In this document: piece by piece, positions 32,942 to 62,559 of the stretch
How positions within the stretch are numbered: position 1 is the stretch's first letter
How the letters are laid out: every line of letters starts with the position of its first letter
Source of the DNA: a virus
Taxonomy: Duplodnaviria; Heunggongvirae; Uroviricota; Caudoviricetes
Virus record (IMG/VR): IMGVR_UViG_3300020050_015720
Strand: one strand, 5' to 3'
Length of the DNA: 64,000 nt
Program-made: the position numbers and the translations under genes
Notes under the pieces: generated by a model
Databases searched by the model: none
The model's input: the letters and a program-made list of their open reading frames with translations, nothing else
Told to the model about the DNA's origin: nothing

Positions 32942-33400
32942 CTATCTTGTAGATTTGTTATGGGAGTTTTTAGATAATAAGTAAAGATCTACATTTATAG
33001 ACGCAAGGTCATCCGCTGTTAAAGTTTCGGGTTTCCATGTTGACATCTTTTGCTTCATCTTTTCAAGGATAATAGCCTTATTATCAGCATCTACAGCTGT
33101 TGATTTTTTGTGGTCCTCATAATAAGTGTAGGCCTGGGTTAGAAATCTTCCGAAGGACGGTGAAGAATGAGCAATTGCTCTACGAATAACTTCGCGTCTT
33201 CCCAACGTCTTTTCTTCCTCGATTCTTGTGAGGTCTGTTTCTGTAATACCTAGGACCTTTAAAGCCTCTTCCCTTTGAGATTGGGTTTGGCTAATTAGCG
33301 CTCAGCGCTCAGGACTGAAGAAACGCTGAAGTATCCCTATATATTTTGCTCCTTCGCTATAAAGAGACCTTAGCACTTCTTTGTTTTGTTTCTGGTACAT
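32942..33400 (-). CDS. hypothetical protein (about 152 aa) with one in-frame TGA (33302-33304)
   Basis: ORFs 33302..33499 and 32942..33205 are in the same frame and separated only by TGA. The likely ATG is at 33398-33400. TAG stop. Confidence 0.45.
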
Positions 33401-33911
33401 AACCGTATAATTCATTTCTGGCAAATGGTTTCGAATACACTTCTGCATCTTCAGGGAGAGAGACACCCTTTTTCTCCCACTCTTGTCGCCAAAGCTCACT
33501 CTTATCGAAAATTAACCGATTCCCGTAGAGTGAGTGACTAGGATCTGCTGGGAAGTATTTGTTCACCACTTTTCTATCCGCTTCTGAATACTTACCTTCC
33601 AAAATTTTAAAGGTGTATCCCTCTTTAACCTCCTTCGGTAACCGAAATACGAAGATACGTTTGGCCTTCTGCGGCTCGTACATCTCCACAAAGCTAGGGT
33701 GGCTCTGAAAGTATTCGGTTAGGGTTTGCGGAATTGTTTCGTTGTATTCGAGCAGAATAAAATCTCCGCTCTTTCAGTTCTTGTATTCCTCTCTATGACT
33801 GTCTCCAGAGTATGTGCTAAGGTAATATGCCGGATCATACATGTTTATTGGCGCCTTTTGCTTTAGCCCTAAGACAGGAGTGAGGAATAATGCTGTTATA
33901 GTGTGTTTCAT
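33357..33911 (-). CDS. secreted protein with signal peptide (about 184 aa), one in-frame TGA (33774-33776)
   Basis: Reading upstream of ORF 33357..33689 through the TGA gives an N-terminus MKHTITALFLTPVLGL, which is signal-peptide-like. TAG stop. Confidence 0.5.
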
Positions 33912-33912
33912 G

Positions 33913-34938
33913 CTAATTAGCAAAGACCTTTAGTGGTATTTGCCCATTATTTTCGTGAATTTCTTTTGGATATACCCATAGGTCATTTTTACTGTACCAT
34001 AGGTAATCATCTAACAATTGATATATTCCTTTGTAGTATTTTCCATCGACGAAACCACCCTCTAATCCACAATTTCTTTCATGCTGAGTGGTTGTATATA
34101 TTAATGCAGGACTTGTGGATGATGTCTTTGTTTCTGCAACAATGAATACAAAATCCTTTATAATGTAACCCTCATCAATATACTGAAGAACAGGACTCTC
34201 TTTTGTCCTTATAGCAAGATCGTAAAGAGCTGCTTGAGTGTAGTAACCAAAAGTTAAGTAACTTTGTGGAAAGTCATAAACAGATTTTCCAGTTGTCTTT
34301 AAGTCAAATGGTTCTATTGTCCTGTTTTTATGGTTTAGTCTTATCCCGTCAAGCAAGGCCTTGAATTCCTGGCCTTCAAGTTCAAAATAGATAGGAACCT
34401 GATGTAATAGTTCCTCTGTTATTCCGGATTTTACAAAATAAGGCTTTGCAAAAGGAGAGGCCAGTATTAACTCTGTCGCTTTAATTGCGGCCTCGTGCTC
34501 GTCTTTTGAGAGCACTGTTATATCCTTAGGATCAGACTGAGTGTAGTAGTACTCAACAGCGTCTGGTGTACTTCAAAACTTTTTTATCACCCAATCTCTA
34601 GACATTTTATATCCAGATGCCCAATAAGCCATCTCATAATCCTCGGCCGGAGAGTCCACTTGTATCCCCTTTGGTAAAGCTTCCACAAAACTTCCCATGA
34701 ATCCATAGGGCTTGTTTATAGTGAGGACCTTGAAACGTTTCTCCCAAGAGGTAGGATCGGTAAGTAAACAGTCAACGGCTGAACCTATTCTCAGTGCTGG
34801 GCTGTTTCACTCATATAGTTCTGGATTATCCCTTTTTAATTTTGCTGCTCTTGGATTTTGAAGGCTTTTTAGCAGACTGTTGGAAATCCTTGGTGATTTG
34901 TAATATTCTTCTATAGGATCTTTGATCTCGTTTTCCAT
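33913..34938 (-). CDS. PD-(D/E)XK family exonuclease (RecB/Cas4-like fold, QxxxY motif), about 341 aa, two in-frame TGA (34573-34575 and 34807-34809)
   Basis: ORF 33913..34515 continues in-frame upstream to an ATG at 34936-34938 if TGA is translated. Motifs: an N-terminal ISNSLLKSL segment, DLK and GYYTQAALY (QxxxY). Confidence 0.7.
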
Positions 34939-34972
34939 TTAATCATTCTTTTATAATTTCCACACAAACAGC

Positions 34973-35311
34973 TACTTGAGCTTGATTGCCAGGCATTAGG
35001 AGTATTATTTTCTTGTTTCTATATAAATACTTAAAGAGCTTTCATCTCAAATCAAAGTCAGGTCTTCTTAGTCCTTTCGTTTCTATTACTCAATCCTCAC
35101 CCATAAAGTCTGGGCTGTATATGATGTTCTTGTAGGATGATTTCTTTTCAACAAGGCCTTTTTTTGTTTTTTCAATGTTTAGACCTTTGAAAAGGAAAGC
35201 AGGCACTAATTCGATCGCTCTTTCGTAATCAAACTGAATACCTGCCTCCTCTAATAGCACTCAACAATATTTTTCAAGGTCATTTCTGCCCTTCTGATTA
35301 TTTTTTTCCAT
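34973..35311 (-). CDS. small PD-(D/E)XK nuclease-like protein (about 112 aa) with three in-frame TGA (35042, 35090, 35261)
   Basis: This region has no standard-code ORF. Read with TGA as sense it forms a single frame: MEKNNQKGRNDLEKYC*VLLEEAGIQFDYERAIELVPAFLFKGLNIEKTKKGLVEKKSSYKNIITAPDFMGED*VIETKGLRRPDFDLR*KLFKYLYENKKIILLMPGNQAQ (* = TGA). It carries a PD...(E)xK-like core. TAG stop at 34973. Confidence 0.5.
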
Positions 35312-36026
35312 TCAATGCTTTGTTTAGCATGTCTGCATAGCCCCTTATAGCAATAATGTCGCTGGGGCGAAGCATGGTTTCAATGTTGGCTATCAGCATT
35401 TCTTCTTTCGGCGTCTGAATCAAGGTCACATGACCATAATCCAATCCAATTTCATCAACACTGTTTTTGGCCATAGCAAAGGCGGCATCCCTGTCCCAAG
35501 CAGACGGAATACTATGTGATAGCACACCATTGGATGTCTGTTTTGTTCCCAGATTTAATGCTCTACCAGCCGCGTTTGGGATAACGTGCACTTGCGCACT
35601 TTGGTATCCCTGTGGAAGCTTCAACAAGGATCCCCCCGGAAGTTCTGCTGCTCCTATAAGAGCCAGAATTTCTGCGTAGTCCCCAATCTCTTTTGCCAAA
35701 GACTCGGCTATTTCCATAATGATGAAATCTTCCAAAGACTCATAGAATTCCTCAAAAGAAGAAAGATCGAACATTCCATCAGTAATGAAGGCTGTTTTTG
35801 GTGCATGATCTGGGACAACGTATCCTTCTGCTGCTAAATGGAGAAGTAGCGCCTCTTTGTCTTGAGTAAGGCGAACACTTGGTGGCGGATTAATGTGGAC
35901 TTTTTGAATGTGCTCTGGAGGAAATCGTGAGTCCTCAAAACAGCCACTTATGTTGTAAGCAGGGTTGAGCATCTGCTGGTTGATGTTCGGGTACTTTGCC
36001 CGTGTTTTCTGATCGAATTTTACCAT
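35298..36026 (-). CDS. hypothetical protein (242 aa), possibly a Rossmann-like nucleotide-processing enzyme
   Basis: Intact ORF with TAA stop. Its ATG overlaps the stop of the uracil-DNA glycosylase gene. No confident family assignment. Confidence 0.55.
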   Translation of the reverse strand: MVKFDQKTRAKYPNINQQMLNPAYNISGCFEDSRFPPEHIQKVHINPPPSVRLTQDKEALLLHLAAEGYVVPDHAPKTAFITDGMFDLSSFEEFYESLEDFIIMEIAESLAKEIGDYAEILALIGAAELPGGSLLKLPQGYQSAQVHVIPNAAGRALNLGTKQTSNGVLSHSIPSAWDRDAAFAMAKNSVDEIGLDYGHVTLIQTPKEEMLIANIETMLRPSDIIAIRGYADMLNKALNGKK

Positions 36027-36721
36027 CGTATTTTATTTTTTAAACTTGAATTAATTATTTCAAAAAACCTCTTGTCCTTGAATAGATGGTAAGAGAAAGG
36101 AGATGGGTGGGCTCCCTTCACTATGACATGGCGTGGATTTATCTTTGGTTCAAAGGCGTGAGCTTTTGTCCCCCAAAGTACCCATACGATCTGGTCACGC
36201 TTATTTAGTACCTTTATGACTTCCTCGGTAAAGGGAGCCCATATAGGCACATGACTCAAGGGTTCCTTGCTTACAACAGTTAATGCTGTGTTTAAAAGGA
36301 GCACCCCCTGTGAAGGAAGGTGCTCCAAATAACTCAACACATTCTCTGTAGCCTGGGTTTCCCCGCAATCCTTCACTATCTCCTTCAGAATATTCCTAAG
36401 AGATGGGGAGGGACGTTTCGTTTTTGAATTGTCGAAAGCTATTCCTGTAGCGGAACCATCGTGGTAAGGATCTTGGCCAATAATAACTACTCTAACGGTA
36501 TTGTATGGGGTCTCTTTGAAAGCCCTGAAAACGTTTGATAGAGTAGAAGGATATATAGTCTGTTTTTTGCTCTCCGGTGATTCCAGGTTACGTATTTCCA
36601 GCCTTTCCTTTTCGGCCTTTAGATAAGGGATGATTTTCTCCTTGAAGTAATCGAAAGCCCCACTTAAAGGTGTTAACCAAGACTCCCCAACAAAATTGGA
36701 GAGATTGTCGTGCTTTGTCAT
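36020..36721 (-). CDS. ung: uracil-DNA glycosylase (family 1)
   Basis: Carries the diagnostic GQDPYH motif (IIGQDPYHDGSATGIAF) and a C-terminal HPSP motif (KGAHPSPFSY). ATG and TAA are intact. Confidence 0.9.
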   Translation of the reverse strand: MTKHDNLSNFVGESWLTPLSGAFDYFKEKIIPYLKAEKERLEIRNLESPESKKQTIYPSTLSNVFRAFKETPYNTVRVVIIGQDPYHDGSATGIAFDNSKTKRPSPSLRNILKEIVKDCGETQATENVLSYLEHLPSQGVLLLNTALTVVSKEPLSHVPIWAPFTEEVIKVLNKRDQIVWVLWGTKAHAFEPKINPRHVIVKGAHPSPFSYHLFKDKRFFEIINSSLKNKIRW

Positions 36722-37099
36722 TTATTGGTAAAGTATCGAATCTACTATGATTCGTTGTGAATAAGGGGTCTCTTCAATTAACATTATGATGGTACTGTCC
36801 GGGCAATCCATCTCATCACAGGTTGTAAAGCACTGTGTTTTAAAGTGTTTCTTCGCTTCTTCTAAGTTCACTGTCTCAATATGGTTTGAAAAACTCATAC
36901 TAATTGAGTCCTTCGCAAATTCTACAATATCTATTCGATATGATTTTGGACTGCTTCTAACCACTTCTTGCAATTCTTCGATGGCTTTGGTTGTTTTCGC
37001 TATTTCAGGTACTAGTGCGGCCACTCCGATAGACAGACCTACGCAGAGGGTAATAATTACCAGGTTCAATTTTTCAAGTCTACTTAAGTTCTTAAGCAT
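36722..37099 (-). CDS. small membrane protein (125 aa)
   Basis: N-terminal hydrophobic segment LVIITLCVGLSIGVAALV. TAA stop. Confidence 0.5.
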   Translation of the reverse strand: MLKNLSRLEKLNLVIITLCVGLSIGVAALVPEIAKTTKAIEELQEVVRSSPKSYRIDIVEFAKDSISMSFSNHIETVNLEEAKKHFKTQCFTTCDEMDCPDSTIIMLIEETPYSQRIIVDSILYQ

Positions 37100-38037
37100 T
37101 TGGATAATAGTTTTTTTATTTTTCTGTTTGTTTGGACAACTCCAAAGTGTTTTTGGTAATCCGAAATATCCTTAAACACTGGATCTAAGTGTATGTTTGG
37201 AAGCTTCAGACGAAGCGATAATTTATTTGCAAACGTCACTCCGGCCGCGTCTCCGTCTAGGAAGATAACGATCTTTTTGAACCGTTTTCTTAGACCCGTT
37301 ATGTACGGAGCAATGGTTTCGTAGGAATCAGAACTAAGACCATACCCTTCCCCGTTTAGGGCCACAGCATTAAAACCATGCTGCTTTAAGACCATTATAT
37401 CCTTTATAGAAGATGTGATAAACAGTAGTTGTCCTCTCTGAGGTAATTGGTACAATCCTCCAATATCTTCCGCTGTGGCATTTCCACCTCATTTCTTTTG
37501 CTTATCAGGGCTGAGTGGTCGGTAAAGTTTTATTCTACCAGAAATGAACTTATAGGCAAAGAGAGGATTTTGTTTACTGCTACGTCCTACAAACGATTCA
37601 TTTTTATAGAGACTCTTTACTATAAAGCAGTATTTTGCTACTATTGTTTTTGGTATTCTGTACCTTTTCCAATAGTGCATACCATCCTCAATATCCCCAG
37701 GAATAAAGGAGAATACAGGTTTCTCGGGTTTATCTTCGACCTCTTGATCTTGGAACAAATGGGCATCCTTTTCAATCTTGGCAATTGCTTCGGAATAAGA
37801 TAGTCCAAATTTTTCTTTAACAAAATCAATTAGCGTATATTTTTTTCCAGTGCCAAAGTCTACAAATAGCGGAGTATTTGAATTTCCAATTCAAAATGAA
37901 CATGTTGGATTCTTGTCTCCTCTTAGCGGATTCTTATAATGTCGACCAAAGACTATTTCTGAATTCAAATAATACCCAAAAGCACCTAGGACACTAATCC
38001 TTTGAAGTATGTTCGTGTGTTCCTTTGCCTTTAGCAT
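37084..38037 (-). CDS. DNA primase (CHC2-like zinc-binding region plus Toprim domain), about 317 aa, two in-frame TGA (37489-37491 and 37891-37893)
   Basis: ORFs 37084..37455 and 37489..37758, plus the upstream region to an ATG at 38035, lie in one frame separated only by TGA. Motifs: KNPLRGDKNPTCSF*IGNSN (zinc-finger-like) and the Toprim motif VIFLDGDAAG. TAA stop. Confidence 0.7.
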
Positions 38038-38377
38038 CTCTATGAATTGTGACTTTTGTGATTGTTTTCGCCTTGTAAACTTCGATTAAATAGCATTCAA
38101 TCTGACTATGTGCATCGAGCCTAAAGGTTTTATTGAAAGCTACGTGTTGACGACTTACGTAACACCGCTCATTTTTTTCGTTGATAAAATCAGCTGAAAA
38201 TTCAGCAACCATAACCTCTTCTAGGAGATCAGGTGAAGAAGCAAGTACTGCCTGCAATTTGGCAAGATGCTTGAAATAGTATTCTAGTGTTAACATAAGA
38301 TAAATAAAAAAAGGGGTAGCAGATTGTAGCCTACTACCCCTAGATTTTAGCTCTGTAAAAACCTCATTTCTACCCAA
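37994..38377 (-). CDS. hypothetical protein (127 aa)
   Basis: Intact ORF with TAG stop. Overlaps the primase start. Confidence 0.45.
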   Translation of the reverse strand: MGRNEVFTELKSRGSRLQSATPFFIYLMLTLEYYFKHLAKLQAVLASSPDLLEEVMVAEFSADFINEKNERCYVSRQHVAFNKTFRLDAHSQIECYLIEVYKAKTITKVTIHRDAKGKGTHEHTSKD

Positions 38378-38414
38378 CCACGCCTAACGGTGGTAATTGT
38401 GATTAGTGAGCTAC

Positions 38415-39005
38415 TTAGACCAATGACTCTAAGTCCTCTGAAGAGGCACTGCCTGCGGCGTTCGACTTGGCAGCACGCTTCATTTCCATTTCGGAGATTG
38501 CCGCATTATCATCCTTTGATAACTTTAGGCCTGTTTCACTCCCTGGGTTGTGCCGCTCTACATACCTTGAGTAAGGCAACTCGGGATACATTTTCTCCTT
38601 ATAGTCTGGAATTACTTTCAGATTAACAGGTACATTTTTATGTGCACCTAAAAGAAGAGCTGCTTTCGCAACAAACTCCTTATAATCTGTAGCCTCGAAG
38701 GTCTCGACGATCTCTGGTCCGAGAAATACTAGCATCAAATCAGTGATTTGACCTAGGTTACGTTTTTGCTCCCTGTTATATGCGTCCTGAATAGTTTCGC
38801 CATCCTTCGGCTTACTACCAGTAGGCATGAACAGCCTTTTGTGGATTGCTCTCCCAGTGGTTGGCTCGGAGAACAGGATATCTGTCCAAGTTTGATCTGT
38901 GACAAGGCCACTGAAAACTACGGTTCCTTCGTGAATTCCTACTGGAATCTTTGTGCCACCTGTGCCGTTGTCACTGTTCAAAAATAGTTTTGCTTGTAAA
39001 CTCAT
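38415..39005 (-). CDS. hypothetical protein (196 aa) with an acidic C-terminal tail, possibly DNA-binding
   Basis: Intact ORF with TAA stop. C-terminus ends ...SASSEDLESLV. No confident family assignment. Confidence 0.5.
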   Translation of the reverse strand: MSLQAKLFLNSDNGTGGTKIPVGIHEGTVVFSGLVTDQTWTDILFSEPTTGRAIHKRLFMPTGSKPKDGETIQDAYNREQKRNLGQITDLMLVFLGPEIVETFEATDYKEFVAKAALLLGAHKNVPVNLKVIPDYKEKMYPELPYSRYVERHNPGSETGLKLSKDDNAAISEMEMKRAAKSNAAGSASSEDLESLV

Positions 39006-39010
39006 TTCGT

Positions 39011-39358
39011 TTAATTTTCTGCTGCAATTACAGCGGTTCGAACATTCTCTAGATTATTTTCAATTTTGCTTGGAAACACGTCCATAACTGAACGAGCTTC
39101 ATTGGTACCATCACTTTTGGTTATCAACTCATAGTTGAAATTACCATCAGCTCCAGCACTTATCTTTGTGTATAAATTATAAGATAGAAAGGCATTCAAG
39201 TTAATCTTTGAAAGCTTCTTTCCATTGACCATAGTACGATAATGGGTAATACCATTTACGTCATAGGCCTCGCAATGCGCTAATACGAATACTACAAAAT
39301 CATCACGCTTAATTTCACGTATTAACTTATATAGATTTCATACTTCTACAGCTAGCAC
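39011..39358 (-). CDS. hypothetical protein with one in-frame TGA (39338-39340); start uncertain
   Basis: ORF 39011..39232 extends upstream in-frame through the TGA. There is no ATG before the TAG at 39401, so GTG at 39356 is a possible start. Confidence 0.35.
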
Positions 39359-39658
39359 TATTCCCCATATTTCTATGGGGCGTGGATCATATCTTCTTTG
39401 CTAAGATTCTGCGCTTATACTAGTATCTTTTAGTGTGTAAACACAATTGCAAAGTCCTGCCATTTCGGGCTTTAAAAGTCGCCCTACTCCCCTTCGGAGG
39501 GATGATCTCTGAACGTTCCCCTGTTCGGGGCTTCGCTGCTGATTGTCCAATTCTATTATTTTTTAACTTATCAAGCTTGCCTTTATTTCAAAGCTACTTT
39601 GTAGTATAATAAACTCTAAGGATATTCCAGCAATTAGACAGGTACCGGACCTAACCTA

Positions 39659-39976
39659 TTGATCCGCCCACTTATCTCTTGAAGGAGATTCTAGGATAGC
39701 CATCTCTTCTGTTGTCATCATAGCATTTATAGTGTCTATAACAATACAGTTGATATCTTGGCGTGTCTCACTAACAGCCTTTACCACTTTATATATTGTT
39801 GTGGGATCGGCCGTCTTCGCGTAGTTTTTATTTTCCGCATTATAAGCGTTCTTTCATCCTTTCCAAGAGAGACCTTTTCCATCCGCATCAATGTAGTAAG
39901 TGCTCTTCGGGTCTAAGAAACGTGCTCCTGTAGTTTTACCTGTTGCAGGTAGTCCTGTTATTTGTACTAAGTTCAT
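39659..39976 (-). CDS. small P-loop NTPase / nucleotide-kinase-like protein (about 105 aa) with one in-frame TGA (39854-39856)
   Basis: Not in the ORF track. Hand translation: MNLVQITGLPATGKTTGARFLDPKSTYYIDADGKGLSWKG*KNAYN...DKWADQ with TAG stop at 39656. Walker A is GLPATGKT. The ATG lies 2 nt after the TAA of the upstream gene. Confidence 0.5.
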
Positions 39977-39978
39977 AA

Positions 39979-40977: not shown

Positions 40978-41534
40978 TATAACAATCCATTATCTTCTTC
41001 TAAAGTATATACAGGAAAAACTATGTTTTCATATTCCTTATCTCTTAACCAATTGACTGAAGCTTTCATGTATTTAAAAGGGTTGGAAAGAGATGGAGAC
41101 TCTTTCTTATTTTTTATCTCTATTTCAAGAGCTTCCTGTAGTTCAGGAGCAGACAGACTATTTAATGCTAACAAATATTGCGCATAGGTTTCCTTTTTGT
41201 TCTGCCTTAATTTTCTTGTTTCTCCAAATCGATCTCACTTATCGGACGCTGGGAAGGTTTTCCAGAACAACTCAAAATCTTCTGTGTAAGTAGCTGTGGC
41301 TTCGTTAGGCAGGAGGGTTAAGTAGCGTGAGAGAAAAACGTGACCAGCATCCAACAAGTGTGTTTCTGTGCAAAGTTTTTGGGAGATTAGATTTTCTATT
41401 ATCAAGTTTTCTTCGATACTCGGTTGTGTTAACTCTCCCGTGCTTAGGTACCACAGCACGAGGTATGATTCGACCGAGATCCTGTCTTCTTTCAATTGCC
41501 TGTATATAGGCAGCGTTAAGGGTAATTGAGACAT
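40977..41534 (-). CDS. hypothetical protein (about 185 aa) upstream of the helicase; possible replisome organiser/loader. One in-frame TGA (41235-41237).
   Basis: ORFs 41235..41534 and 40977..41174 share a frame across the TGA. The joined product reads ...ASDK*DRFGETRKLRQNKKETYAQYLLALNSLSAPELQEALE... Confidence 0.45.
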
Positions 41535-41820
41535 AATTTAAAATATGTTTTGAGTAGTGTATCTGCTTTGTGTCTGCATATTCCTCATTGACTTCTAAGG
41601 ACATTTCTGTGCTATCAAAGTATTCCTGTATCCGCTCCATTAATTGGGTTGCATCCCAAATACATTGAAAATAAGATAAATAAGGAAAGGAATGCAATAG
41701 TAGATGTGACCGCCCCTTTTGAGTGTAACGAATAGAGAAAATAACGCTATAAGAGTCTGCCCAAAAGGTTGTTTGCAGGTCTTTTGTTTTTAGTGTGCCG
41801 GAGAATATTCGTTTTTCCAT
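41305..41820 (-). CDS. hypothetical protein (171 aa) overlapping the previous gene by about 230 nt in another frame
   Basis: Standard ORF from ATG at 41818 to TAA at 41305. The long overlap suggests either a frameshift (real or error) or an overlapping gene. Confidence 0.35.
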   Translation of the reverse strand: MEKRIFSGTLKTKDLQTTFWADSYSVIFSIRYTQKGRSHLLLHSFPYLSYFQCIWDATQLMERIQEYFDSTEMSLEVNEEYADTKQIHYSKHILNYVSITLNAAYIQAIERRQDLGRIIPRAVVPKHGRVNTTEYRRKLDNRKSNLPKTLHRNTLVGCWSRFSLTLLNPPA

Positions 41821-42122
41821 TATTCTGTAGTAGGGTATGTTCCACTAGAGCTGCTACACATAAAGATAGCTTCACAATCTTGTTCTTGAAATAATCTGTA
41901 CAGCGCCCTTATACTTGATTTTAGAAGTACGTGGTAGTCATAGGAACGCTGACCTTCAAAAGCTATTGTTTCACCAGCAAAGTAATATAAGGTAATTGAA
42001 GCACGAAATAATTCCTCCTCTTCTTCTATCTCTACTAATCCGCCAATCTTTCCATAGGCGTTTCTATAGTGCATGACCATCCGAAAGTATTCATTGGGAA
42101 TTTTATTGTTTGTCTTCAGCAT
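41820..42122 (-). CDS. hypothetical protein (about 100 aa)
   Basis: ATG at 42120-42122 and TAA at 41820. Confidence 0.45.
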   Translation of the reverse strand: MLKTNNKIPNEYFRMVMHYRNAYGKIGGLVEIEEEEELFRASITLYYFAGETIAFEGQRSYDYHVLLKSSIRALYRLFQEQDCEAIFMCSSSSGTYPTTE

Positions 42123-42351
42123 ATGCAAGGGCTTTTTCGATTAGATCAAACAAAGATAACATAGGCCCAAAGGTTTTACTATGATAATACGAATTATTTT
42201 TATTCCGTAAAGAGAGTTTTGCTCCGTAACGCTGTAGCCCGTCTGCGGCCCTAGTCCTGGTTTTATACAGAGACAATTTCGCATATACTTCACCATGCGC
42301 CTTTGTTAGCTCTATCTGGGCTAAAAATCTATGAGATTTGTCCGTCGGCAT
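42103..42351 (-). CDS. hypothetical protein (82 aa)
   Basis: Intact ORF from ATG to TAA. Confidence 0.45.
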   Translation of the reverse strand: MPTDKSHRFLAQIELTKAHGEVYAKLSLYKTRTRAADGLQRYGAKLSLRNKNNSYYHSKTFGPMLSLFDLIEKALAYAEDKQ

Positions 42352-42553
42352 AGCTATGAAATTTTCTTATGACGTCGAGTAAAGTAGTGTGCATGTTATG
42401 GGTTACCACTAATTTTTGGCGCTCCAGCACACGATCGTTCTGTAATATGATATAATATAAGTGAATCTCTTTCCCACTAGACTCAAATATATGCAACTTT
42501 AAATCAAAATTTCCAGAAGAGTGTATCCCTTTATACATCAAGGTTCCCATCAA
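42329..42553 (-). CDS. hypothetical protein (74 aa)
   Basis: Intact ORF with TAG stop. Confidence 0.4.
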   Translation of the reverse strand: MMGTLMYKGIHSSGNFDLKLHIFESSGKEIHLYYIILQNDRVLERQKLVVTHNMHTTLLDVIRKFHSYADGQIS

Positions 42554-43700
42554 TTAAACTGGTTGAAGGTAAAAGAGCAAAAAGTTCTTGCTTGGCTATT
42601 TCTGGCGACACGTTTTCTCTTACAGAAAGAACCTTTGAGTCCCCAGTTGACCAATATACCAGGGTAAATTTTCCAGTATCGTCCTTATAAAAGCGTAGGG
42701 TGTGTGCCTCGAGTTTCATAACTAACGGTGGATATCCCCCACCATATTTTGAACAGCATTCACAAATGTAATTACTGTCCGTGTCGAAATACTGTGCCAC
42801 TACATATTCTGGAATCAATGTAAGATCAATAAGAATGTACTGTCCACAAGATTCACATATCTCTTCCTTATGACGAATAACCGCTGTATTAGCTTCAAAA
42901 TTATCAGTACGCGCCTTATATAGTTGGCGCATATCGTGTCCAGCATAATGGAGTTTTCGTGAATCACTTGTTAACAGATCATACGTGCAAGCTCCACACA
43001 TATGCTTAAATAAGGTACCATTTTGCGTCCTAACTTCGTCTTCAAAGTTTGTAATCAAATAGTTTCCATCGCAAACAGGACAAATAGCTACTTCTGTAAA
43101 TGTTTCTACGTAGTCCTCGATAGTTCCTACTCTGAATTGCTTCAATTCATCCTCAATGAGTTTTACACAAGACAAGCATATAAGCACCTTACCACCATCA
43201 AGCCAATTTTGAGTGGCTCCCATAGGAGTATCTATCTCGTGACAAAACTCCTTCGTGTAAGGATCAGATACATTTATACGTTGTTGCACCTTACAGAAAA
43301 TACAAGCTAATTTTTTTTCCTTTGCGTTTGGCTCAATCTCCTCATTTAGGTGTTGATAATGCTCATAAGTGTGGTCAGGGAAAACCCCCTGCGACACAAA
43401 TGTTTGTATGTCATTAAACAGACCTATGGTTTTCGTATTTGTGCCACTTCTTAGTTTTGCTTCGATTTTATTATCACAATCATCACAGATAAATACTCCT
43501 GGAACACGTTCTGGTGTTTCACCACCACCTAAAGGGTAATGAAATAAAGGAATATAAGTATGCTGATTTAAACAAAAAACACATTGCTCTTCACAAGCCT
43601 GACCTACTCGGTGTTCGTCGAGTTGGCTCGGAAGCAATGCTCCCCTCATCCTTATATACTGCGTAAGCCGGTTTGCACCTCGGCCAAATGGTTTAGCCAT
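42531..43700 (-). CDS. Cys-rich multi-zinc-ribbon protein (389 aa)
   Basis: At least eight CxxC pairs are spread across the protein (CEEQC, CDDC, CIFC, CLSC, CPVC, CGAC, CESC, CECC). ATG and TAA are intact. Confidence 0.6.
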   Translation of the reverse strand: MAKPFGRGANRLTQYIRMRGALLPSQLDEHRVGQACEEQCVFCLNQHTYIPLFHYPLGGGETPERVPGVFICDDCDNKIEAKLRSGTNTKTIGLFNDIQTFVSQGVFPDHTYEHYQHLNEEIEPNAKEKKLACIFCKVQQRINVSDPYTKEFCHEIDTPMGATQNWLDGGKVLICLSCVKLIEDELKQFRVGTIEDYVETFTEVAICPVCDGNYLITNFEDEVRTQNGTLFKHMCGACTYDLLTSDSRKLHYAGHDMRQLYKARTDNFEANTAVIRHKEEICESCGQYILIDLTLIPEYVVAQYFDTDSNYICECCSKYGGGYPPLVMKLEAHTLRFYKDDTGKFTLVYWSTGDSKVLSVRENVSPEIAKQELFALLPSTSLIDGNLDV

Positions 43701-44836
43701 ATTGGTGTTAATTTAGAATTGATGAATTTTTTCTCTATCCAAGTCTTCTCCACAGTTCCGATCGTGTACAAATTAAAAAATATAGGCGTTTTACCTTCTT
43801 CAGGGCGAATAATCCTGCTTAGCTGTTGACGATTTGTTAATAACGTTGATACTCCTGAAGCACAGATTCCGCCAAATACTCTTGGCACATCTAAGCCTTC
43901 ATTTAAAGCGTCAACAGCAATTAATCTTGTTTTATCCCCAGCACTAAAAGCCTTTAAAACTTGTTCTCTTTGGGATGTTTTTTGCTTTGAATGGTACACA
44001 ACACTGTTTGGTACTTGTGTAGCTATTTTCTCCGCAAAGGCAGTTGTTTTTGTGAAAATGATCCACTTTGCACTCGGGGGATATTTCTCCAATATTGAAA
44101 TTACTGCGCCTATTTTTGCAGGGTTTTCGTACAAGACTTGCTTGCGCATAGTCATACTTGCCCAGTAAGCATTACAGGCCATTTGCACCTCTTTTTCAAA
44201 GTTTCGATGTTGAGCTGCTCTGGCTAATTCAAATATAGATGAATACTCTCTAAGATGAAATTGCTCACTCCTAAATCGAGTAAGTTTTATTATGCTCTGA
44301 GTGAATTTACTGTCAAAAACTTTATACTTTCCAGCAACTTCTTTACTAAGGGGAACAGCAAGATTGTATATTTGAGCCTTTGGTGCAAGGCCCTCATCAA
44401 TAGCGCCAGATAACTCTTTTTCGTACACAGTTGGGGCAATCCTCTCCAAAAAGCTAACGTATTCTGGGTCTTCTGGTAGTGTGGCGGTTAAACACAAAAG
44501 AGCCCTTGTCTTTATATTTGTGAACAATCTTCTGTACTCTTTTGAAAGAGCCCGATGCACCTCATCTACTATAACTAAATCATACTCACCTTCATGGAGA
44601 TAAGCACTCTTTAAGCACATGTATGTGACATCGGGCCCAACAACAACATTTTTTCACTGGTCCAATATTGGTCTACGAGAAGTAACTATCAATGTTCGTG
44701 GTGTTCCTAAAGCTTCAAAAGCCATAAGTCCACAACGAGTTTTGCCGCCTCCCGTATAAATTAATATGGTTCCCCAGTTATTTGCATCTTTTCAGGCCTG
44801 AACAGCTTCAGCCTGCATCTTATCTCTCTTATCCAT
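43652..44836 (-). CDS. SF2 helicase (DEVH-box; UvsW / type III Res-like), about 394 aa, two in-frame TGA (44654-44656 and 44792-44794)
   Basis: ORF 43652..44620 contains VIVDEVH (motif II) and later motifs. The upstream in-frame region through two TGA contains motif I (LIYTGGGKTRCG) and an ATG at 44834. TAA stop. Confidence 0.7.
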
Positions 44837-45446
44837 TATCTACTTGACATTTTGTGCACCAACCGTGGTTATCTGCAACAAGTGTGTTTTCAGAACAATT
44901 TGTACAAACTCCTCGCTCTAAATTTATTTTACATTTATGGCAGAATGAATCATATTGGCTCGCAGTTGACAGTGTTTGACCACAGCCGTGGCACACTCTT
45001 TGTGTACGTCTTGAAGCTAAGCTAACACATTCATCACAAAAAGCGGCTCCCCGTATGACAGGTTTTCCACAAGACTTGCAGCGTTTTGGTGGTTGCACGT
45101 TGTACCTGTTAAAACAATTCATGCAGAGACCCTCATTGTTAAGGTGAGACAGAATTCCGCATTCCAGGCATTTTTGCACTTTTGTGCTAGCAGGACGAAA
45201 TACTTCAAGATTTTTACAGTCTTCACAAAGTAAACTATTGTTAGCATATTCTTCAATCACCGAAGAACAATTACTGCATGTCTTCTTTAAGTTTCTAGTC
45301 TCAAAGCATCGTGCACATATTCTCGTTACTATCTTTTCTGGTTTTTCTATTCTGTAATAGCAGCTTTCACAACAAGCGTACTTATCACGAACAAAACCAA
45401 GCCAGGTTATTGTATGACAAATCTGGCATTCGTCTTGTAATCCCAC
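44829..45446 (-). CDS. multi-zinc-ribbon protein (205 aa)
   Basis: About ten CxxC pairs. TAA stop. Confidence 0.6.
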   Translation of the reverse strand: MGLQDECQICHTITWLGFVRDKYACCESCYYRIEKPEKIVTRICARCFETRNLKKTCSNCSSVIEEYANNSLLCEDCKNLEVFRPASTKVQKCLECGILSHLNNEGLCMNCFNRYNVQPPKRCKSCGKPVIRGAAFCDECVSLASRRTQRVCHGCGQTLSTASQYDSFCHKCKINLERGVCTNCSENTLVADNHGWCTKCQVDNG

Positions 45447-45538
45447 AAGCCAAGGAGGGCGTGAGAAGGTGTGGATTAATTCAAGGCCAATATTGCCGTG
45501 TATTCCCCCACACCACTCACAACTAGGTTCTCCTCGGC

Positions 45539-46636
45539 TTACATCTTTTTTGCTGCTTTAGGCAGAGTTAAGCCGCCCTTAGTCCATTTAGTAACCAAGG
45601 CTTGAAATTGAGTACGTAAACCAGCCTTAGCTTGAGGAGACGAGTTTCTTGCTGATTCATATTTCACGAGCAAATCCATAGCTTCCGCTAAGTTAGCAAC
45701 CGTATTTTGTTGGGTGCTTTTGTCATGAATATACGGAAACAGTTTCTCAGAAAATGAAGCAACAACATCTTTATCAAGTTCAGCATAAGTCAACAGTTTA
45801 CCTATCAAATCTTTTGCTTTCCTTGCTTCTTCAGTTATGTCATCTTTTGGCTTCTTGTCCTTTGCGTCATCTTTTGCTTTTGAATCCTTAGCGGGTGCAT
45901 CAACAACCAAATCAAATAAGTTGCCTAGCAAAGCATGATTTACACCTTTATGGGTTAGAGCCAGCATTAATACCGTTAGGATTTCCCAGAAGGTAATTAG
46001 GATGTGAAAGGCTGTCAAACCTAATGAAGTCACCATACCCGTTTTAAGGGAATCATATGGGGCATAGTTAGCCGGAAGCTTATTCAACGCTATCACATAG
46101 TCTAAGTACGCTTGAGGTTTAAATCCCAAACCAACTTGAAAACTTGCCCACCATACTTCAAGTTGAACTCCCTGATGAAGAGCATTTGTCATAGCCATAA
46201 GATTGTAGATAGGCGATCCAATGGTCAAAACCAAACTTACACCACTCAGCATAAAAGTTGTGCTAGCCAAGCCCAGCCAAATGCCTAGGGGTCTTTTTGT
46301 TGTTATTACGGATATGAAACTTCCAAAGTATTTTGTCATGGCGAAGGCACCAAAAGCGCCTACCATTGCCATTGCTATGTGACTGCCCATACGAGCAGCT
46401 ACGTTCATGTTTTCTTCTTGAACTGAACCCAGGAGAGCTGCTTCTGCAAGCATAGCTGAAGCCTGGAAAACAATAAAGTATGTCAGAGAATATTTAATAA
46501 AGGAACGAACAAGAATTACTCCTGGTTCAAGCCCCGCATTTTCAGGATCTTTTTTTGCTTTTTGATATCCAAAGTAGCTTACGACGCCAAGTAATCCGGC
46601 GACCATAATGTAAATAAACGTGGCTTCTAATGTCAT
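45539..46636 (-). CDS. polytopic inner-membrane protein (365 aa)
   Basis: Several hydrophobic helices and a Lys/Asp-rich loop. ATG at 46634, TAA at 45539. Confidence 0.6.
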   Translation of the reverse strand: MTLEATFIYIMVAGLLGVVSYFGYQKAKKDPENAGLEPGVILVRSFIKYSLTYFIVFQASAMLAEAALLGSVQEENMNVAARMGSHIAMAMVGAFGAFAMTKYFGSFISVITTKRPLGIWLGLASTTFMLSGVSLVLTIGSPIYNLMAMTNALHQGVQLEVWWASFQVGLGFKPQAYLDYVIALNKLPANYAPYDSLKTGMVTSLGLTAFHILITFWEILTVLMLALTHKGVNHALLGNLFDLVVDAPAKDSKAKDDAKDKKPKDDITEEARKAKDLIGKLLTYAELDKDVVASFSEKLFPYIHDKSTQQNTVANLAEAMDLLVKYESARNSSPQAKAGLRTQFQALVTKWTKGGLTLPKAAKKM

Positions 46637-46644
46637 TATTTTTT

Positions 46645-48522
46645 TCAGTGTGTACTATCTTCCGCAACAGCGGGAACAGCTATGGTTAAGAATTTGTTAA
46701 CAGCCTCGCTGCAAGAGCGCTCTAGCGCTAAACTTACAGCCTTTTTCTTCCACTCTGCACATTCCACTACATATTCATCGTGCGCAAATATCACAATATC
46801 GAATCCAATCTTTTTTGAGCGTTGCCTTAAATATATTCCGGCTTGCTTTGCTACGTCAGCAGCAGTAGCTTGGATCGGTATGTTCTGTGCCCAACGTTGA
46901 ATTTTTGCCTCTAACATTCTACAATCTCGTACCACATGTGGATGTGGTTCCCAACCTCTCCGTGTAAAGGTCTCTATATGGGCCTTCATGGTTTTATACT
47001 TATCAAAGAAAGGAATATAACTTCTTCTCTTAGTTAATTCGTTTGCCACTATGTACCCATTCTCTTTTGCGAGTTGCCCTTGTCTATCGAAATAGGGTCT
47101 TAGCTTTGGAAATCCCTTATAAACCTTCTCTATCAGCTCTTTTCCTCGTTTCAAAGGAATCCTATACTTTTCGTAAAGTGTTCCAGCACCACCCCCATAG
47201 GCAATACTGAAGTTAATATTCTTAGCTAACCTTCGTTCTTCTGAATCCTTCTGTAAGGTTGGATCTTCAAAGGCCAATCTGGCGGTCGCTAAGTGGTAGT
47301 CTCCATCATTATCAAAGGCAGCTCTAAAGTTTACATCTCCACATTTATCAGCTAGAATTCTTGCTTCAATGTTTGAGAAGTCGGCCCCAACAAATACATT
47401 TCCCTCTTCAGCTTGGAAAGCGGAGCGGTAAATTGCGCCGCGCTTTATATTCTGGATATTCGGATTTGTAGAGGATGTCCTACCCGTACGCATTATCTGC
47501 ATAAAAGAAGAATGAACCCTATTGGATATGGGATTTACATGCTTTAAAAACATTTCCCCATATACAGACGACTCTTTCGCGGACTCCTTATAAGATAGGT
47601 AACTACCAATTATGGGATCTTTCTTTATCTGCTTTTCTAATACTTGTCTAGCAACAGATTCCTTTATCGCGCCCGTCTTTTTGTCTATGATGGATGTGTC
47701 CACCCCGAAAGACTGCATTATTGGTAGAACTTGTCTCCAACTATTTCAGTTTACGGGGGCATAAGCAGAAAGCATTTCTCTAAGCTTTTCAGTAGCAAGC
47801 AATGTTTGACGATAATTGTCTAACCATTGCTTCTGATTTAGAAACACACCAACTAATTCCATATCTCCCAGAACCTTCAAATATTCATTTTCTAACTCGA
47901 TTGTCGCTTCGAGATTATCCTTGGTTATTTGTACTTGTTGAGCCAGATATGTTCTGTATGTGGCCTCAACGTCGAGAGCCGCATATAATAATTGAGCTAA
48001 GCTAAACGGGGTGTCACCTTGTTTTGTAAATGATTTTTGTAGCTCTTTTGTTATCGTAGGGAGAAATAAATTCCCTTGGCTACTATAAAAATCTATGCCA
48101 ACGCGCCTATGAGAAACTTGGGCTAGTCCATACCAGCCTTTTCGTATGCCCTCAAAACTTCCGCAGTCCAAGACTTGCTCTGCTAGCATAGTATCAAATA
48201 CATCACTCAGTTCCACCCCATAGTTCTGCTTTATGACCTGGTAATCATACTTCAGGTTGTGCCCAATAATGGGTCTTTTTATTATTTCTTTTAGGAGCTT
48301 GGTGGGATCTTTTACACGTGTGTCAATAAGATACTGCACATGCGCATTTCCGAACTGTAGTAATACTACCTTTTGAGCTAAGATGTTATCTAATCCTCCG
48401 GTAGTCTCGGTGTCTAGAGCAATAGGGCCAGTTCATTCCCGTATTGCCTTAGTAATATCTAGCCCTGAGCAAGGAGAGATTTTACTATCTCTCACGACTC
48501 ACATAGACGGCCGTATATCCAT
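46645..48522 (-). CDS. polA: family A DNA polymerase with 3'-5' exonuclease domain (about 625 aa), three in-frame TGA (47746-47748, 48433-48435, 48499-48501)
   Basis: Exo I motif (ALDTETTGG) appears only after read-through of the TGA at 48433. Exo III motif is YAALD. Polymerase motifs are A (GADFSNIEARILA), B (RRLAKNINFSIAYG) and C (VIFAHDEYVV). The exo and pol ORFs (47746..48339 and 46645..47718) are in the same frame and separated by a single TGA. The protein ends in His at TGA 46645. Confidence 0.8.
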
Positions 48523-53843: not shown

Positions 53844-53869
53844 ATAGATTTTAGTTTAATTGTTAACAA

Positions 53870-54065
53870 AAATTCCCTCCCCGTCCTAAGGCGGTACCAG
53901 TCCTTACTACTTATCCCGAGAATACCAGGTCCCAGCCGCTGATGGAGCAGCCAGAAAGATATGTGGGGACCTTTGCGAGGATCCGCGCGGTCAGGCCAAA
54001 TTCGGGGGAAGGGAACACTCCCAGTGAAGCAAAACCCTAGAGACGGGAGACATCCCACGGGGCAG
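53870..54065 (-). ncRNA. GC-rich (about 58-60%) structured island, candidate small RNA or regulatory element upstream of the AAA+ gene
   Basis: Sharp local GC excess against the AT-rich background, with several short G/C runs that could pair. The only ORF across it (53822..54058, 78 aa) looks like a translation artefact. No known RNA family was recognised. Confidence 0.3.
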
Positions 54066-54068
54066 ATC

Positions 54069-58709: not shown

Positions 58710-58723
58710 GTTTTAAAATTTAG

Positions 58724-62541: not shown

Positions 62542-62559
62542 TTTAAAGAATTTAAAAGG

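What the first reader, a model, noticed from the sequence alone, without database searches (positions are those of the whole stretch)
33302..48522. Pervasive in-frame TGA codons in minus-strand genes: TGA is a sense codon (probably Trp, table 4)
Adjacent minus-strand ORF fragments are in the same frame and separated only by TGA. Conserved motifs are restored only when TGA is translated. The cases I checked: polA (TGAs at 47746, 48433, 48499; Exo I motif DTETTG appears only after read-through); SF2 helicase (44654, 44792; Walker A TGGGKT recovered); primase (37489, 37891; zinc-finger region recovered); DnaB-like helicase (40843, 40114); RecB-family nuclease (34573, 34807); small nuclease (35042, 35090, 35261, where every Trp/TGA position is TGA); kinase-like (39854); secreted protein (33774); hypotheticals (33302, 39338, 41235). 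Typical contexts are CSF*IGN, IKKF*STP, ELYE*NSP, IRE*TGP and FSPER*ALI, which are compatible with Trp. Gly (table 25) cannot be excluded from context alone.
Basis: seen in the sequence. Interest (0 to 1): 0.9.

Follow-up and report, generated by a model that had tools for sequence, protein, structure and literature searches.

The report
Phage reads TGA as tryptophan
This is about 64 kb of a roughly 102-kb crAss-like phage whose DNA-replication genes use the stop codon TGA for tryptophan, while a neighbouring gene block still uses TGA as a stop and the virion genes almost avoid it. Stop-codon recoding is already known in phages, but this distribution across gene blocks and the odd suppressor tRNA are unusual.

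Summary
All 19 listed positions are minus-strand TGA codons, and they are identical in three independent assemblies. Protein domains (PolA, DnaB, SF2 helicase, PD-(D/E)XK nuclease, Sak4) run straight through them.

In two related phages at about 48% protein identity, the matching codons are mostly TGG or TGA. The rest are mostly Phe, Leu and Val, and Gly appears once. Trp is therefore strongly favoured over Gly.

The window is not uniformly table 4:
- **Sense TGA** is concentrated in the replication block (33.3–49.2 kb): 23 TGA against 43 TGG.
- **The upstream block on the same strand (49.4–64 kb)** uses TGA as a stop, often in ATGA stop/start overlaps.
- **The giant virion genes (1–29.7 kb)** have 1 TGA against 70 TGG and no TGA stops.

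Published recoded crAss-like phages show the reverse pattern, with late genes recoded and replication genes standard.

Outside the window, the same phage carries a non-canonical tRNA with anticodon UCA that standard tRNA finders miss. It has Trp-like acceptor and anticodon arms and a long variable arm. A relative carries a canonical tRNA(UCA).

Verdict: a genuine, known kind of recoding in an unusual variant.

The parts
33302..49317 (-). Recoded block C: the replication and recombination genes in which in-frame TGA is read as Trp. There are 23 sense TGA against 43 TGG, and every gene ends in TAA or TAG.
48754..49317 (-). M15-like peptidase (no family hit here). Sense TGAs at 49147 and 48946. 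This is the first recoded gene of the block.
   Evidence: The two TGAs align to TGG/TGA and TGG/TGG in R1/R2.
46636..48522 (-). Family A DNA polymerase with a 3'-5' exonuclease domain. Sense TGAs at 48499, 48433, 47746 and 46645.
   Evidence: Pfam E 4e-63 and 2e-21. R1 has TGG at three of the sites and TGA at 48433. TGA 47746 lies inside the aligned polymerase core of Taq polymerase.
43652..44836 (-). SF2 helicase. Sense TGAs at 44792 and 44654, with the Walker A motif (TGGGKT) between them.
   Evidence: 44792 aligns to TGA in R1 and R2; 44654 aligns to F in both
40977..41534 (-). Conserved hypothetical protein. Sense TGA at 41235.
   Evidence: Aligns to H in R1 and F in R2.
39979..40977 (-). 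DnaB-like helicase. Sense TGAs at 40843 and 40114.
   Evidence: DnaB_C E 2.8e-14. 40843 aligns to TGA in R1 and R2; 40114 aligns to L in both.
39011..39976 (-). Sak4-like ssDNA-annealing ATPase in two exons (39662-39976 and 39011-39355). Sense TGAs at 39854 and 39338.
   Evidence: The spliced product matches phrog_2872 at E 1.8e-38 over residues 3-215. The R1 ortholog is uninterrupted.
39356..39661 (-). Group I intron of 306 nt with no ORF. The 5' exon ends in U and the intron ends in G.
   Evidence: Rfam RF00028, 64.4 bits, E 4.8e-14. Boundaries were set from the R1 alignment.
37084..38037 (-). Toprim-domain, primase-like protein. Sense TGAs at 37891 and 37489.
   Evidence: Weak Toprim hits. 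47% identity to the R1 ortholog. The TGAs align to TGA/F and TGG/TGA in R1/R2.
34826..35311 (-). DUF1064-like small protein with no TGG. Sense TGAs at 35261, 35090 and 35042. TGA 34943 may be its real stop, because the tail after it overlaps the start of the next gene.
33913..34938 (-). PD-(D/E)XK nuclease (DUF3799). Sense TGAs at 34807 and 34573.
   Evidence: 34573 aligns to TGG in R1 and R2; 34807 aligns to G in R1 and N in R2.
32942..33911 (-). Two conserved hypothetical genes, 33357-33911 (TGA 33774) and 32942-33448 (TGA 33302).
   Evidence: The R1 and R2 alignments run across both TGAs. 33774 aligns to TGA in R1; 33302 aligns to V in both relatives.
49414..64000 (-). Block D, upstream on the same strand: bpMoxR, vWA, AAA ATPase, two glucosaminidase-domain proteins and small genes. 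TGA acts as a stop here, at 63725, 61798, 60897, 60017, 57672, 56545, 56246, 54855, 51665, 50819 and 49707. Several of these sit in ATGA or TGATG overlaps with the next start codon. No homology-supported internal TGA occurs in this block.
1..29745 (+). Virion block: the crAss ring protein and giant proteins of 1406, 778, 632, 4095, 1148 and 1507 aa. It has 1 TGA against 70 TGG, and every stop is TAA or TAG.
25252..25254 (+). The single sense TGA of the virion block, at codon 11 of the 1507-aa gene. It is conserved as TGA in R1 within a conserved N-terminus.

Best explanation
The window is part of a lytic crAss-like phage of about 102 kb that uses two decoding regimes.

In the replication and recombination block (33.3-49.2 kb, minus strand), UGA is read as tryptophan. 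The same holds in a few late genes: the large terminase subunit (TerL), which lies outside the window, and codon 11 of a giant virion gene.

The decoder is most likely a phage-encoded tRNA with anticodon UCA. In this phage it lies outside the window, about 650 nt downstream of a phage tmRNA and upstream of the GroEL and TerL genes. It has Trp-type acceptor and anticodon arms and a G73 discriminator base, with a long variable arm and an extended D-stem.

The genes transcribed first on the minus strand (49.4-64 kb and beyond) are written in the standard code and end in TGA. They would be translated by the unmodified host machinery. Once the tRNA accumulates, the TGA-bearing replication genes become translatable.

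Suppression is probably incomplete. That would explain three things: abundant or giant virion proteins avoid TGA both as sense and as stop, sense TGAs cluster in the 5' parts of genes, and TGA-terminated genes remain tolerable.

Shown here: TGA is sense and reads as Trp; TGA use differs by block; the tRNA(UCA) exists. Inferred: the timing of expression, that the tRNA is charged with Trp, and that decoding is leaky.
For: **Sense and Trp**
- Domains span the TGAs.
- In 27 aligned non-TGA cells from relatives, 14 are W and 8 are F, L or V, with G once and S once. The BLOSUM62 sum is +134 for W against -50 for G.
- R1 TGAs align to window TGG, including in a giant gene.
- The TGAs are identical in three other assemblies.

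**Phage identity**
- The contigs of the same phage carry CrAss_Ring_1, CrAss_Ring_2 and Crass_capsid Pfam families.
- The best PolA matches are crAss-like phages.
- The 1413-aa protein matches virion proteins of Flavobacterium and Cellulophaga phages.

**Block pattern**
- Block C has 23 TGA against 43 TGG; the virion block has 1 against 70 (Fisher p = 8e-8).
- 12 of 30 code-11 genes on that strand in L011 (the block D part it covers, about 54-64 kb, and its upstream extension) end in TGA, against 0 of 25 structural genes (p = 2e-4).
- Six of those 12 sit in ATGA overlaps with the next start codon.
- The vWA orthologs in R1 and R2 end in TAA within 4 residues of the window's TGA.
- The same block pattern is seen in R1.

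**Decoder**
- R1 has a canonical tRNA(UCA), 52.8 bits.
- The window phage has a 99-nt cloverleaf with anticodon loop CUUCAAA and an encoded GCCA end (L024 5388-5486).
- A second species carries a homolog with two compensatory pair changes.
- Its acceptor stem is AGGGGUG/CACCCUU followed by G73. E. coli trpT has AGGGGCG/CGCCCCU followed by G73.

**Leakiness**
- Sense TGAs have a median relative position of 0.30 against 0.65 for TGG (p = 0.005). The trend is the same in R2 and weaker in R1.
Against: - No expression or proteomic data exist, so the early/middle/late assignment is inferred from gene content and order alone.
- The tRNA scores below Rfam's thresholds. Its best family is tRNA-Sec at 26.7 bits against a cut-off of 47. 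Its fold z-score is only -1.76.
- Its long variable arm could attract seryl-tRNA synthetase.
- In several strains, including a contig that carries all the TGAs, the tRNA gene is split in the anticodon loop by an insertion of about 718 nt carrying an HNH endonuclease gene. Splicing of this insertion is assumed, not shown.
- TGA 34943 looks like a stop inside the recoded block.
- One TGA stop in an ATGA overlap (31084) lies downstream of the recoded block.
- The positional-bias statistics rest on small samples that share ancestry.
Confidence: 0.75

Rival explanations
1. The host reads UGA as Trp natively (table 4, as in Mycoplasma and Spiroplasma), and the whole phage simply follows its host. 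On this reading the C-terminal TGAs in block D are ordinary Trp codons followed by short tails.
For: Most table-4 phages in INPHARED are Mycoplasma or Spiroplasma viruses, and only 15% of table-4 phages have a detectable Sup-TCA tRNA (PMC11210395). Every gene can formally be extended to a TAA or TAG.
Against: - TGA makes up only about 25% of Trp codons on the minus strand and about 1% in the virion genes. Native table-4 genomes use 80-90% (bioRxiv 10.1101/2022.06.29.495998).
- Block D has no homology-supported internal TGA but many terminal ones, in ATGA overlaps. Read-through tails would overlap the next gene by 29-72 codons.
- The vWA orthologs stop with TAA at the same place.
- The phage and its relatives carry their own tRNA(UCA).
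- The phage encodes cell-wall hydrolases, and its closest virion-protein matches are Flavobacterium and Cellulophaga phages.
Confidence: 0.07
2. UGA is read through without a dedicated charged suppressor. The phage weakens RF2 or relies on near-cognate host tRNA-Trp, and the tRNA-like gene is not the decoder.
For: ARAGORN and Rfam gathering-threshold searches find no canonical tRNA in about 100 kb of this phage. The candidate gene is interrupted in some strains. A phage tmRNA is present and could rescue ribosomes stalled at UGA.
Against: A well-formed cloverleaf with a UCA anticodon and an encoded CCA end is conserved with compensatory changes in a second species at the same position in the gene order. 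R1 has a canonical tRNA(UCA) in the same neighbourhood. Up to four TGAs per gene would give negligible yield by near-cognate reading alone (established knowledge of read-through frequencies).
Confidence: 0.12
3. TGA encodes Gly (table 25), Ser or Sec rather than Trp.
For: The tRNA has a long variable arm and a D-arm like that of tRNA-Sec, and its best Rfam family is tRNA-Sec. From my own knowledge, seryl-tRNA synthetase recognises long variable arms. One TGA site aligns to G and one to S.
Against: 14 of 27 informative cells are TGG-Trp, against Gly once and Ser once. The BLOSUM62 sums are G -50 and S -53 against W +134. TGA and TGG interchange in both directions between genomes. More than 20 sites in ordinary enzymes, none aligning to Cys, argues against Sec; SECIS elements were not looked for. 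The acceptor stem and discriminator base are Trp-type.
Confidence: 0.04
4. The TGAs are real stops. On this reading the genes are pseudogenes or split genes, or the TGAs are sequencing errors.
For: Code-11 gene callers do produce fragments.
Against: The TGAs are identical in independent assemblies. Ten sites are conserved as TGA in relatives at 48% identity. Homology continues in the same frame on both sides of each TGA. Essential motifs (Exo I, Walker A) are lost without read-through.
Confidence: 0.01

Closest known systems
TGA-to-Trp recoded crAss-like phages (Crassvirales), for example the Zeta crAss-like phage Lera (PMC12386605) and the block-coded crAssphages described with Mgcod (bioRxiv 10.1101/2022.06.29.495998)
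   Same: A crAss-like genome in which in-frame TGAs align with Trp, only some genes are affected, there is a block structure, and relatives carry a suppressor tRNA with anticodon UCA.
   Different: In the published cases, recoded genes are mainly structural and lysis genes and replication genes are in the standard code. Here the replication block is recoded and the virion genes are almost free of TGA. The code boundary at about 49.4 kb lies inside a same-strand gene array rather than at a strand switch. The tRNA(UCA) is non-canonical.
The code-switch model of Borges et al. (bioRxiv 10.1101/2021.08.26.457843; the Agate and Jade TGA-recoded phages)
   Same: A standard-code host, early genes compatible with the standard code, and a suppressor tRNA that later permits translation of genes containing in-frame stops.
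   Different: That model gates lysis and structural genes. Here the gated set is DNA replication and recombination plus TerL. No RF1 or tryptophanyl-tRNA synthetase gene was seen in the roughly 100 kb examined (Pfam labels).
Native table 4 (Mycoplasma and Spiroplasma and their phages)
   Same: UGA is read as Trp.
   Different: In table-4 genomes TGA is never a stop and supplies 80-90% of Trp codons. Here it supplies about 25% in one block and about 1% in another, and it is still used as a terminator.
Table 25 phages of Absconditabacteria and Gracilibacteria
   Same: In-frame TGA.
   Different: In those phages TGA reads as Gly and about 90% of genes are affected. Here Gly aligns once in 27 cells and the recoding is restricted to particular blocks.
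tRNA-Sec (Rfam RF01852) and the Sec-like 'allo-tRNAs' (the latter recalled from memory: Mukai et al., 2017)
   Same: A UCA anticodon in a CUUCAAA loop, a long variable arm, and a long D-stem with a 4-nt loop.
   Different: The score is below the Rfam cut-off (26.7 against 47 bits). The acceptor plus T-stem geometry is 7+5, not 8+5 or 9+4. The acceptor stem is Trp-type. The tRNA is used at many ordinary Trp positions.

Membership tests
Stop-codon-recoded (TGA to Trp) crAss-like phage | In-frame TGA in conserved genes, aligning with Trp in homologs | tested here: met
Stop-codon-recoded (TGA to Trp) crAss-like phage | crAss-like hallmark genes: capsid, ring proteins, giant virion proteins and PolA | tested here: met
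   CrAss_Ring_1, CrAss_Ring_2 and Crass_capsid Pfam labels on contigs of the same phage. PolA is closest to crAss-like phages.
Stop-codon-recoded (TGA to Trp) crAss-like phage | Phage-encoded suppressor tRNA with anticodon UCA | tested here: inconclusive
   No canonical tRNA was found by ARAGORN or at Rfam gathering thresholds. A non-canonical UCA cloverleaf lies at L024 5388-5486 and shows compensatory changes in a second species. Relative R1 has a canonical one.
Stop-codon-recoded (TGA to Trp) crAss-like phage | Recoded block holds the late (structural and lysis) genes; replication genes are in the standard code; the switch coincides with a strand switch (as published) | tested here: not met
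   The pattern is inverted: block C has 23 TGA against 43 TGG, and the virion block 1 against 70. The boundary at about 49.4 kb lies within one strand.
Native table 4 genome | TGA is never used as a terminator and is the dominant Trp codon | tested here: not met
   TGA stops in ATGA overlaps, with orthologs that stop at the same site. The TGA share of Trp codons is 25% or less.
Table 25 (TGA to Gly) | TGA aligns with Gly columns | tested here: not met
   1 Gly in 27 cells; BLOSUM62 sum -50.
Selenocysteine decoding | tRNA-Sec reaching the Rfam cut-off, and UGA at Cys/Sec positions of selenoproteins | tested here: not met
   26.7 bits against a cut-off of 47. The TGA sites align to Trp, not Cys. 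SECIS elements were not searched for.
Group I intron (the interruption of the Sak4-like gene) | Match to the catalytic-core covariance model; 5' exon ends in U; intron ends in G; the spliced ORF is restored | tested here: met
   RF00028, 64.4 bits against a cut-off of 50. The boundaries and the spliced ORF fit. An intron-less ortholog exists in R1.

The most novel reading that the evidence does not exclude
In this lineage the stop-codon switch gates DNA replication and recombination (middle genes) rather than lysis and assembly. UGA is read by a previously unrecognised class of phage suppressor tRNA. This tRNA combines Trp-type acceptor and anticodon arms with a tRNA-Sec-like body, and in some strains carries an HNH-encoding intron at anticodon position 34/35. 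Standard tRNA finders miss it. Such tRNAs could account for part of the roughly 85% of table-4 phages that appear to lack a suppressor tRNA.
Probability: 0.35. Interest if true: 0.75.

Novelty: new variant of a known kind. Interest (0 to 1): 0.55.

Why it matters
- **Annotation.** Public code-11 annotation of this phage splits its polymerase, helicases, primase-like protein and nucleases into fragments. Applying table 4 to the whole genome would instead wrongly extend about a dozen genes in the neighbouring block. A block-aware annotation is needed.
- **Biology.** Current models say that recoding delays lysis and structural genes. A lineage in which the replication block is recoded while virion genes avoid the codon shows that the same trick can gate a different stage. 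Together with the 5' bias of sense TGAs, it suggests that suppression is leaky and that this leakiness shapes codon choice.
- **Method.** A suppressor tRNA invisible to ARAGORN and below Rfam's cut-offs gives a concrete candidate explanation for the 'missing' opal suppressors in many TGA-recoded phages.

Tried and rejected
- Megablast of the region against INPHARED phages found no match.
- tblastn of the first 3000 aa of the 4095-aa protein against phages found no match. A search for its relatives in IMG/VR also found none.
I reached the rest of the genome instead through exact-protein look-ups.
- ARAGORN with lowered thresholds gave only noise, with tens to hundreds of false tRNAs, and was abandoned.
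- A weak tRNA hit without a D-arm (L011 3158-3222, 29 bits) has anticodon CAU and a mismatched acceptor stem. I rejected it as the suppressor.
- A 107-nt tRNA-like element (L020 16246-16352) could not be read as a UCA tRNA.
- Simple ORF coverage under alternative stop sets and code-11 coding density per block did not discriminate well. Homology across the TGAs was the useful test.
- A 15-mer search for the anticodon arm in IMG/VR returned mostly chance matches. A 20-mer covering the T-arm and acceptor stem was specific.

Full report
**1. The observation**

When the TGAs are read through, Pfam domains run across them:
- DNA_pol_A (E 4e-63) and its 3'-5' exonuclease domain (E 2e-21) in the 628-aa product of 46636-48522.
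- DnaB_C (E 2.8e-14).
- ResIII and Helicase_C.
- DUF3799, a PD-(D/E)XK domain.
- Weak Toprim and DUF1064 hits.

The same TGAs are present in independent assemblies of the same phage from other samples, at 99.2-99.9% identity (L028, L029, L030). Assembly error is therefore excluded. Public standard-code gene calls on those contigs cut the genes into fragments.

**2. What the window is**

There is no close DNA match in INPHARED. The best PolA matches are crAss-like phages at about 28% identity. The 1413-aa plus-strand protein matches virion structural proteins of Flavobacterium and Cellulophaga phages.

Exact-protein look-ups recovered contigs of the same phage, the longest 102,154 nt. Their genes carry the Pfam labels CrAss_Ring_1, CrAss_Ring_2 and Crass_capsid. 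The window is therefore about 64 kb of a crAss-like phage of about 102 kb. Three related species were found in IMG/VR:
- R1 (IMGVR_UViG_3300035438_001058), with about 48% PolA identity.
- R2 (IMGVR_UViG_3300033066_001843).
- R3 (IMGVR_UViG_3300048837_000398).

**3. Which amino acid**

R1 and R2 share gene order with the replication block. I aligned them with the TGAs masked (X against a stop) so that the alignment could not be biased. Window TGA sites then fall on TGG or TGA at 14 of the 20 block-C sites covered in that run. With the table-4 alignment, which adds three further PolA sites that all fall on TGG or TGA, the count is 17 of 23.

Among the 27 aligned cells that are not themselves TGA, W occurs 14 times, F 4, L 2 and V 2, and H, A, S, G and N once each. 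The summed BLOSUM62 scores are W +134, Y +29, F +25, G -50 and S -53.

The interchange runs both ways. R1 and R2 TGAs align to window TGG. One example lies in a giant virion gene: window KEVTLWDAY against R1 KEISL[TGA]DAY. In solved polymerases, the TGA at 47746 sits inside the aligned core, opposite Leu of the Taq motif FNLNS. Trp is strongly supported. Gly, Ser and Sec are not.

**4. The window does not follow table 4 throughout**

Sense TGAs are confined to 33.3-49.2 kb, where there are 23 TGA against 43 TGG. The plus-strand virion block (1-29.7 kb) has 70 TGG and one TGA (Fisher p = 8e-8). That single TGA, at codon 11 of the 1507-aa gene, is real: it is conserved as TGA in R1 within a conserved N-terminus. 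The structural genes to the left of the window and the portal and capsid genes also have none. TerL, outside the window, has two.

In the block upstream on the same strand (49.4-64 kb, continuing to about 69.5 kb), TGAs occur almost only at gene ends. Standard-code calls give a compact array in which 12 of 30 genes end in TGA. Six of those sit in ATGA overlaps with the next start codon, for example the run MoxR, vWA, a 100-aa gene and a 240-aa gene. Reading through these TGAs would make tails of up to 29-72 codons that overlap the next gene.

The vWA orthologs of R1 and R2 end with TAA within four residues of the window's TGA. All three MoxR orthologs have TGA at the same aligned position, followed by tails that are not conserved. 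None of 25 structural genes ends in TGA (p = 2e-4). R1 shows the same block pattern.

The genome therefore has three regimes:
- TGA as a stop (upstream block D).
- TGA as Trp, with stops only TAA or TAG (replication block C, plus TerL).
- TGA avoided (virion genes).

There are two exceptions. TGA 34943, at the end of the DUF1064-like gene, is conserved as TGA in all three genomes, and the tail after it only shadows the overlapping start of the next gene. It may be a stop inside the recoded block. An ATGA-type TGA at 31084 lies downstream of block C.

**5. Comparison with the literature**

Block-wise recoding in crAss-like phages is known. In the published cases, genes with reassigned stops are late (virion assembly and lysis), and replication and transcription genes are in the standard code or compatible with both codes. 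The switch usually coincides with a strand switch (bioRxiv 10.1101/2021.08.26.457843; bioRxiv 10.1101/2022.06.29.495998; PMC12386605).

Here the pattern is inverted, and the boundary at about 49.4 kb lies inside a same-strand array. Only about 15% of table-4 phages have a detectable Sup-TCA tRNA (PMC11210395).

**6. The decoder**

ARAGORN and Rfam gathering-threshold searches find no tRNA in the window or in the rest of the roughly 100 kb of this phage. They find only a tmRNA at 76 bits.

R1 has a canonical tRNA with anticodon UCA (52.8 bits), next to its own tmRNA and upstream of GroEL and a TerL gene with five in-frame TGAs. I used the R1 tRNA as a probe. A 13-nt match to its anticodon arm led to a 99-nt gene in the window phage, L024 5388-5486. 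Its minimum-free-energy fold is a cloverleaf with these parts:
- a 7-bp acceptor stem;
- a 7-bp D-stem with one bulge and a 4-nt loop;
- the anticodon loop CUUCAAA;
- a 6-bp variable arm;
- a 5-bp T-stem;
- an encoded GCCA 3' end.

Its best Rfam family is tRNA-Sec, but at only 26.7 bits against a cut-off of 47.

R3 carries a homolog at the same place in the gene order, upstream of GroEL, TerL and the portal gene. It shows two compensatory changes, A1-U72 to G1-C72 and G-C to A-U in the variable stem.

The acceptor stem and discriminator base (AGGGGUG/CACCCUU then G73) and the anticodon arm closely resemble E. coli trpT (AGGGGCG/CGCCCCU then G73). From my own knowledge, A1-U72, G5-C68, G73 and the anticodon are the identity elements for E. 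coli tryptophanyl-tRNA synthetase. This fits Trp charging but does not prove it.

In several strains the gene is split by an insertion of about 718 nt carrying an HNH endonuclease ORF. One of these strains is contig Ga0206648_1000078, which also carries all the TGAs I checked in 35.5-56.6 kb. The repeat at the junction allows exon 1 to end at U34 and the insert to end in G. Those are the boundary rules for a group I intron, and from memory this is also the position of the cyanobacterial tRNA-Leu intron. Splicing is inferred, not shown.

**7. Hints that decoding is leaky**

Within block C, sense TGAs lie towards the 5' ends of genes. The median relative position is 0.30 against 0.65 for TGG (Mann-Whitney p = 0.005). 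R2 shows 0.25 against 0.66 (p = 0.005) and R1 0.40 against 0.58 (p = 0.10).

These samples are small and share ancestry. Even so, the trend fits a cost of premature termination, together with the avoidance of TGA in giant and abundant virion proteins and the presence of a phage tmRNA.

**8.

Rfam finds a group I intron at 39363-39691 on the minus strand (64.4 bits). R1 has one uninterrupted gene where the window has two ORFs. Removing 39356-39661 (306 nt, with U before the 5' splice site and G at the intron's end) restores a 219-aa Sak4-like protein that matches phrog_2872 at E 1.8e-38 across the junction.

**9. Verdict**

It belongs to a known phenomenon, stop-codon recoding in crAss-like phages, so it is not categorically new. 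Three features make it an unusual variant:
- the inverted distribution across gene blocks;
- the continued use of TGA as a stop in the adjacent block;
- a non-canonical tRNA(UCA), interrupted by an intron in some strains, that standard tools miss.

The timing model, the charging identity of the tRNA and the leakiness of decoding are inferences that need proteomic, tRNA and expression data.

Noticed in passing
window 39356-39661 (-): A 306-nt group I intron with no ORF interrupts a Sak4-like ssDNA-annealing ATPase gene. The ortholog in relative R1 has no intron.
   Followed up: yes
L024 5388-5486 (+), same phage, outside the window; homologs at L154 5069-5167 and L102 3870-3968: A non-canonical 99-nt tRNA with anticodon UCA. 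It has Trp-like acceptor and anticodon arms, a long variable arm and a 7-bp D-stem with a 4-nt loop. ARAGORN misses it and it scores below the Rfam cut-offs. A second species shows two compensatory pair changes.
   Followed up: yes
L020 14072-14789 (also in L021, L025, L022); absent in L024: An insertion of about 718 nt with a 172-aa HNH ORF splits the tRNA(UCA) gene in its anticodon loop in some strains. The boundaries fit a group I intron at position 34/35 (U before the insert, G at its end). This was not tested against a model.
   Followed up: partly
L020 13119-13380 (+); L019 6164-6446 (-) in R1: The phage encodes a tmRNA (76 bits) with a 32-aa tag ending in VYA, and R1 has one too. The 3' end of the tmRNA is duplicated about 560 nt downstream. 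An HNH-like ORF containing in-frame TGAs lies between the two copies (L024 4673-5269).
   Followed up: partly
window block C genes; R1 and R2 orthologs: Sense TGAs are biased towards the 5' parts of genes relative to TGG: median 0.30 against 0.65 (p = 0.005), with the same direction in the relatives.
   Followed up: partly
L011 6825-6881 (+), equal to L020 3683-3739 (-), about 2.8 kb beyond the right end of the window: A Pistol ribozyme match just above Rfam's gathering score (35.6 against 34.5 bits), in an intergenic gap of the early region.
   Followed up: no
L011 3158-3222 (-) and L020 16246-16352 (+): Two further tRNA-like elements. One is a 65-nt tRNA-like sequence without a D-arm, with a CAU anticodon loop (29 bits). 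The other is a 107-nt element with a perfect acceptor stem and T-arm but an uninterpretable middle. Their function is unknown.
   Followed up: partly
window 9495-21782 (+): A single 4095-aa ORF. Its only recognisable part is a Dda-like / AAA_30 helicase domain at about residues 1240-1357. It has no relatives in INPHARED or by the IMG/VR pattern search.
   Followed up: partly
window 57672-58709 and 56545-57675 (-): A bpMoxR-family AAA ATPase and a vWA-like protein form a pair of genes joined by an ATGA overlap. The pair is conserved in R1 and R2.
   Followed up: no
L024 8404-10008; L154 5727-8402 and 8377-11763: The phage encodes a GroEL (Cpn60). In relative R3 the GroEL and TerL ORFs are much longer (891 and 1128 aa) and match in split pieces, which suggests inteins or introns.
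   Followed up: no
window 34943-34945 (-): This TGA is conserved as TGA in all three genomes at the end of the DUF1064-like gene, whose three earlier TGAs are sense. It may be a functional stop inside the recoded block, which would imply ambiguous decoding.
   Followed up: partly
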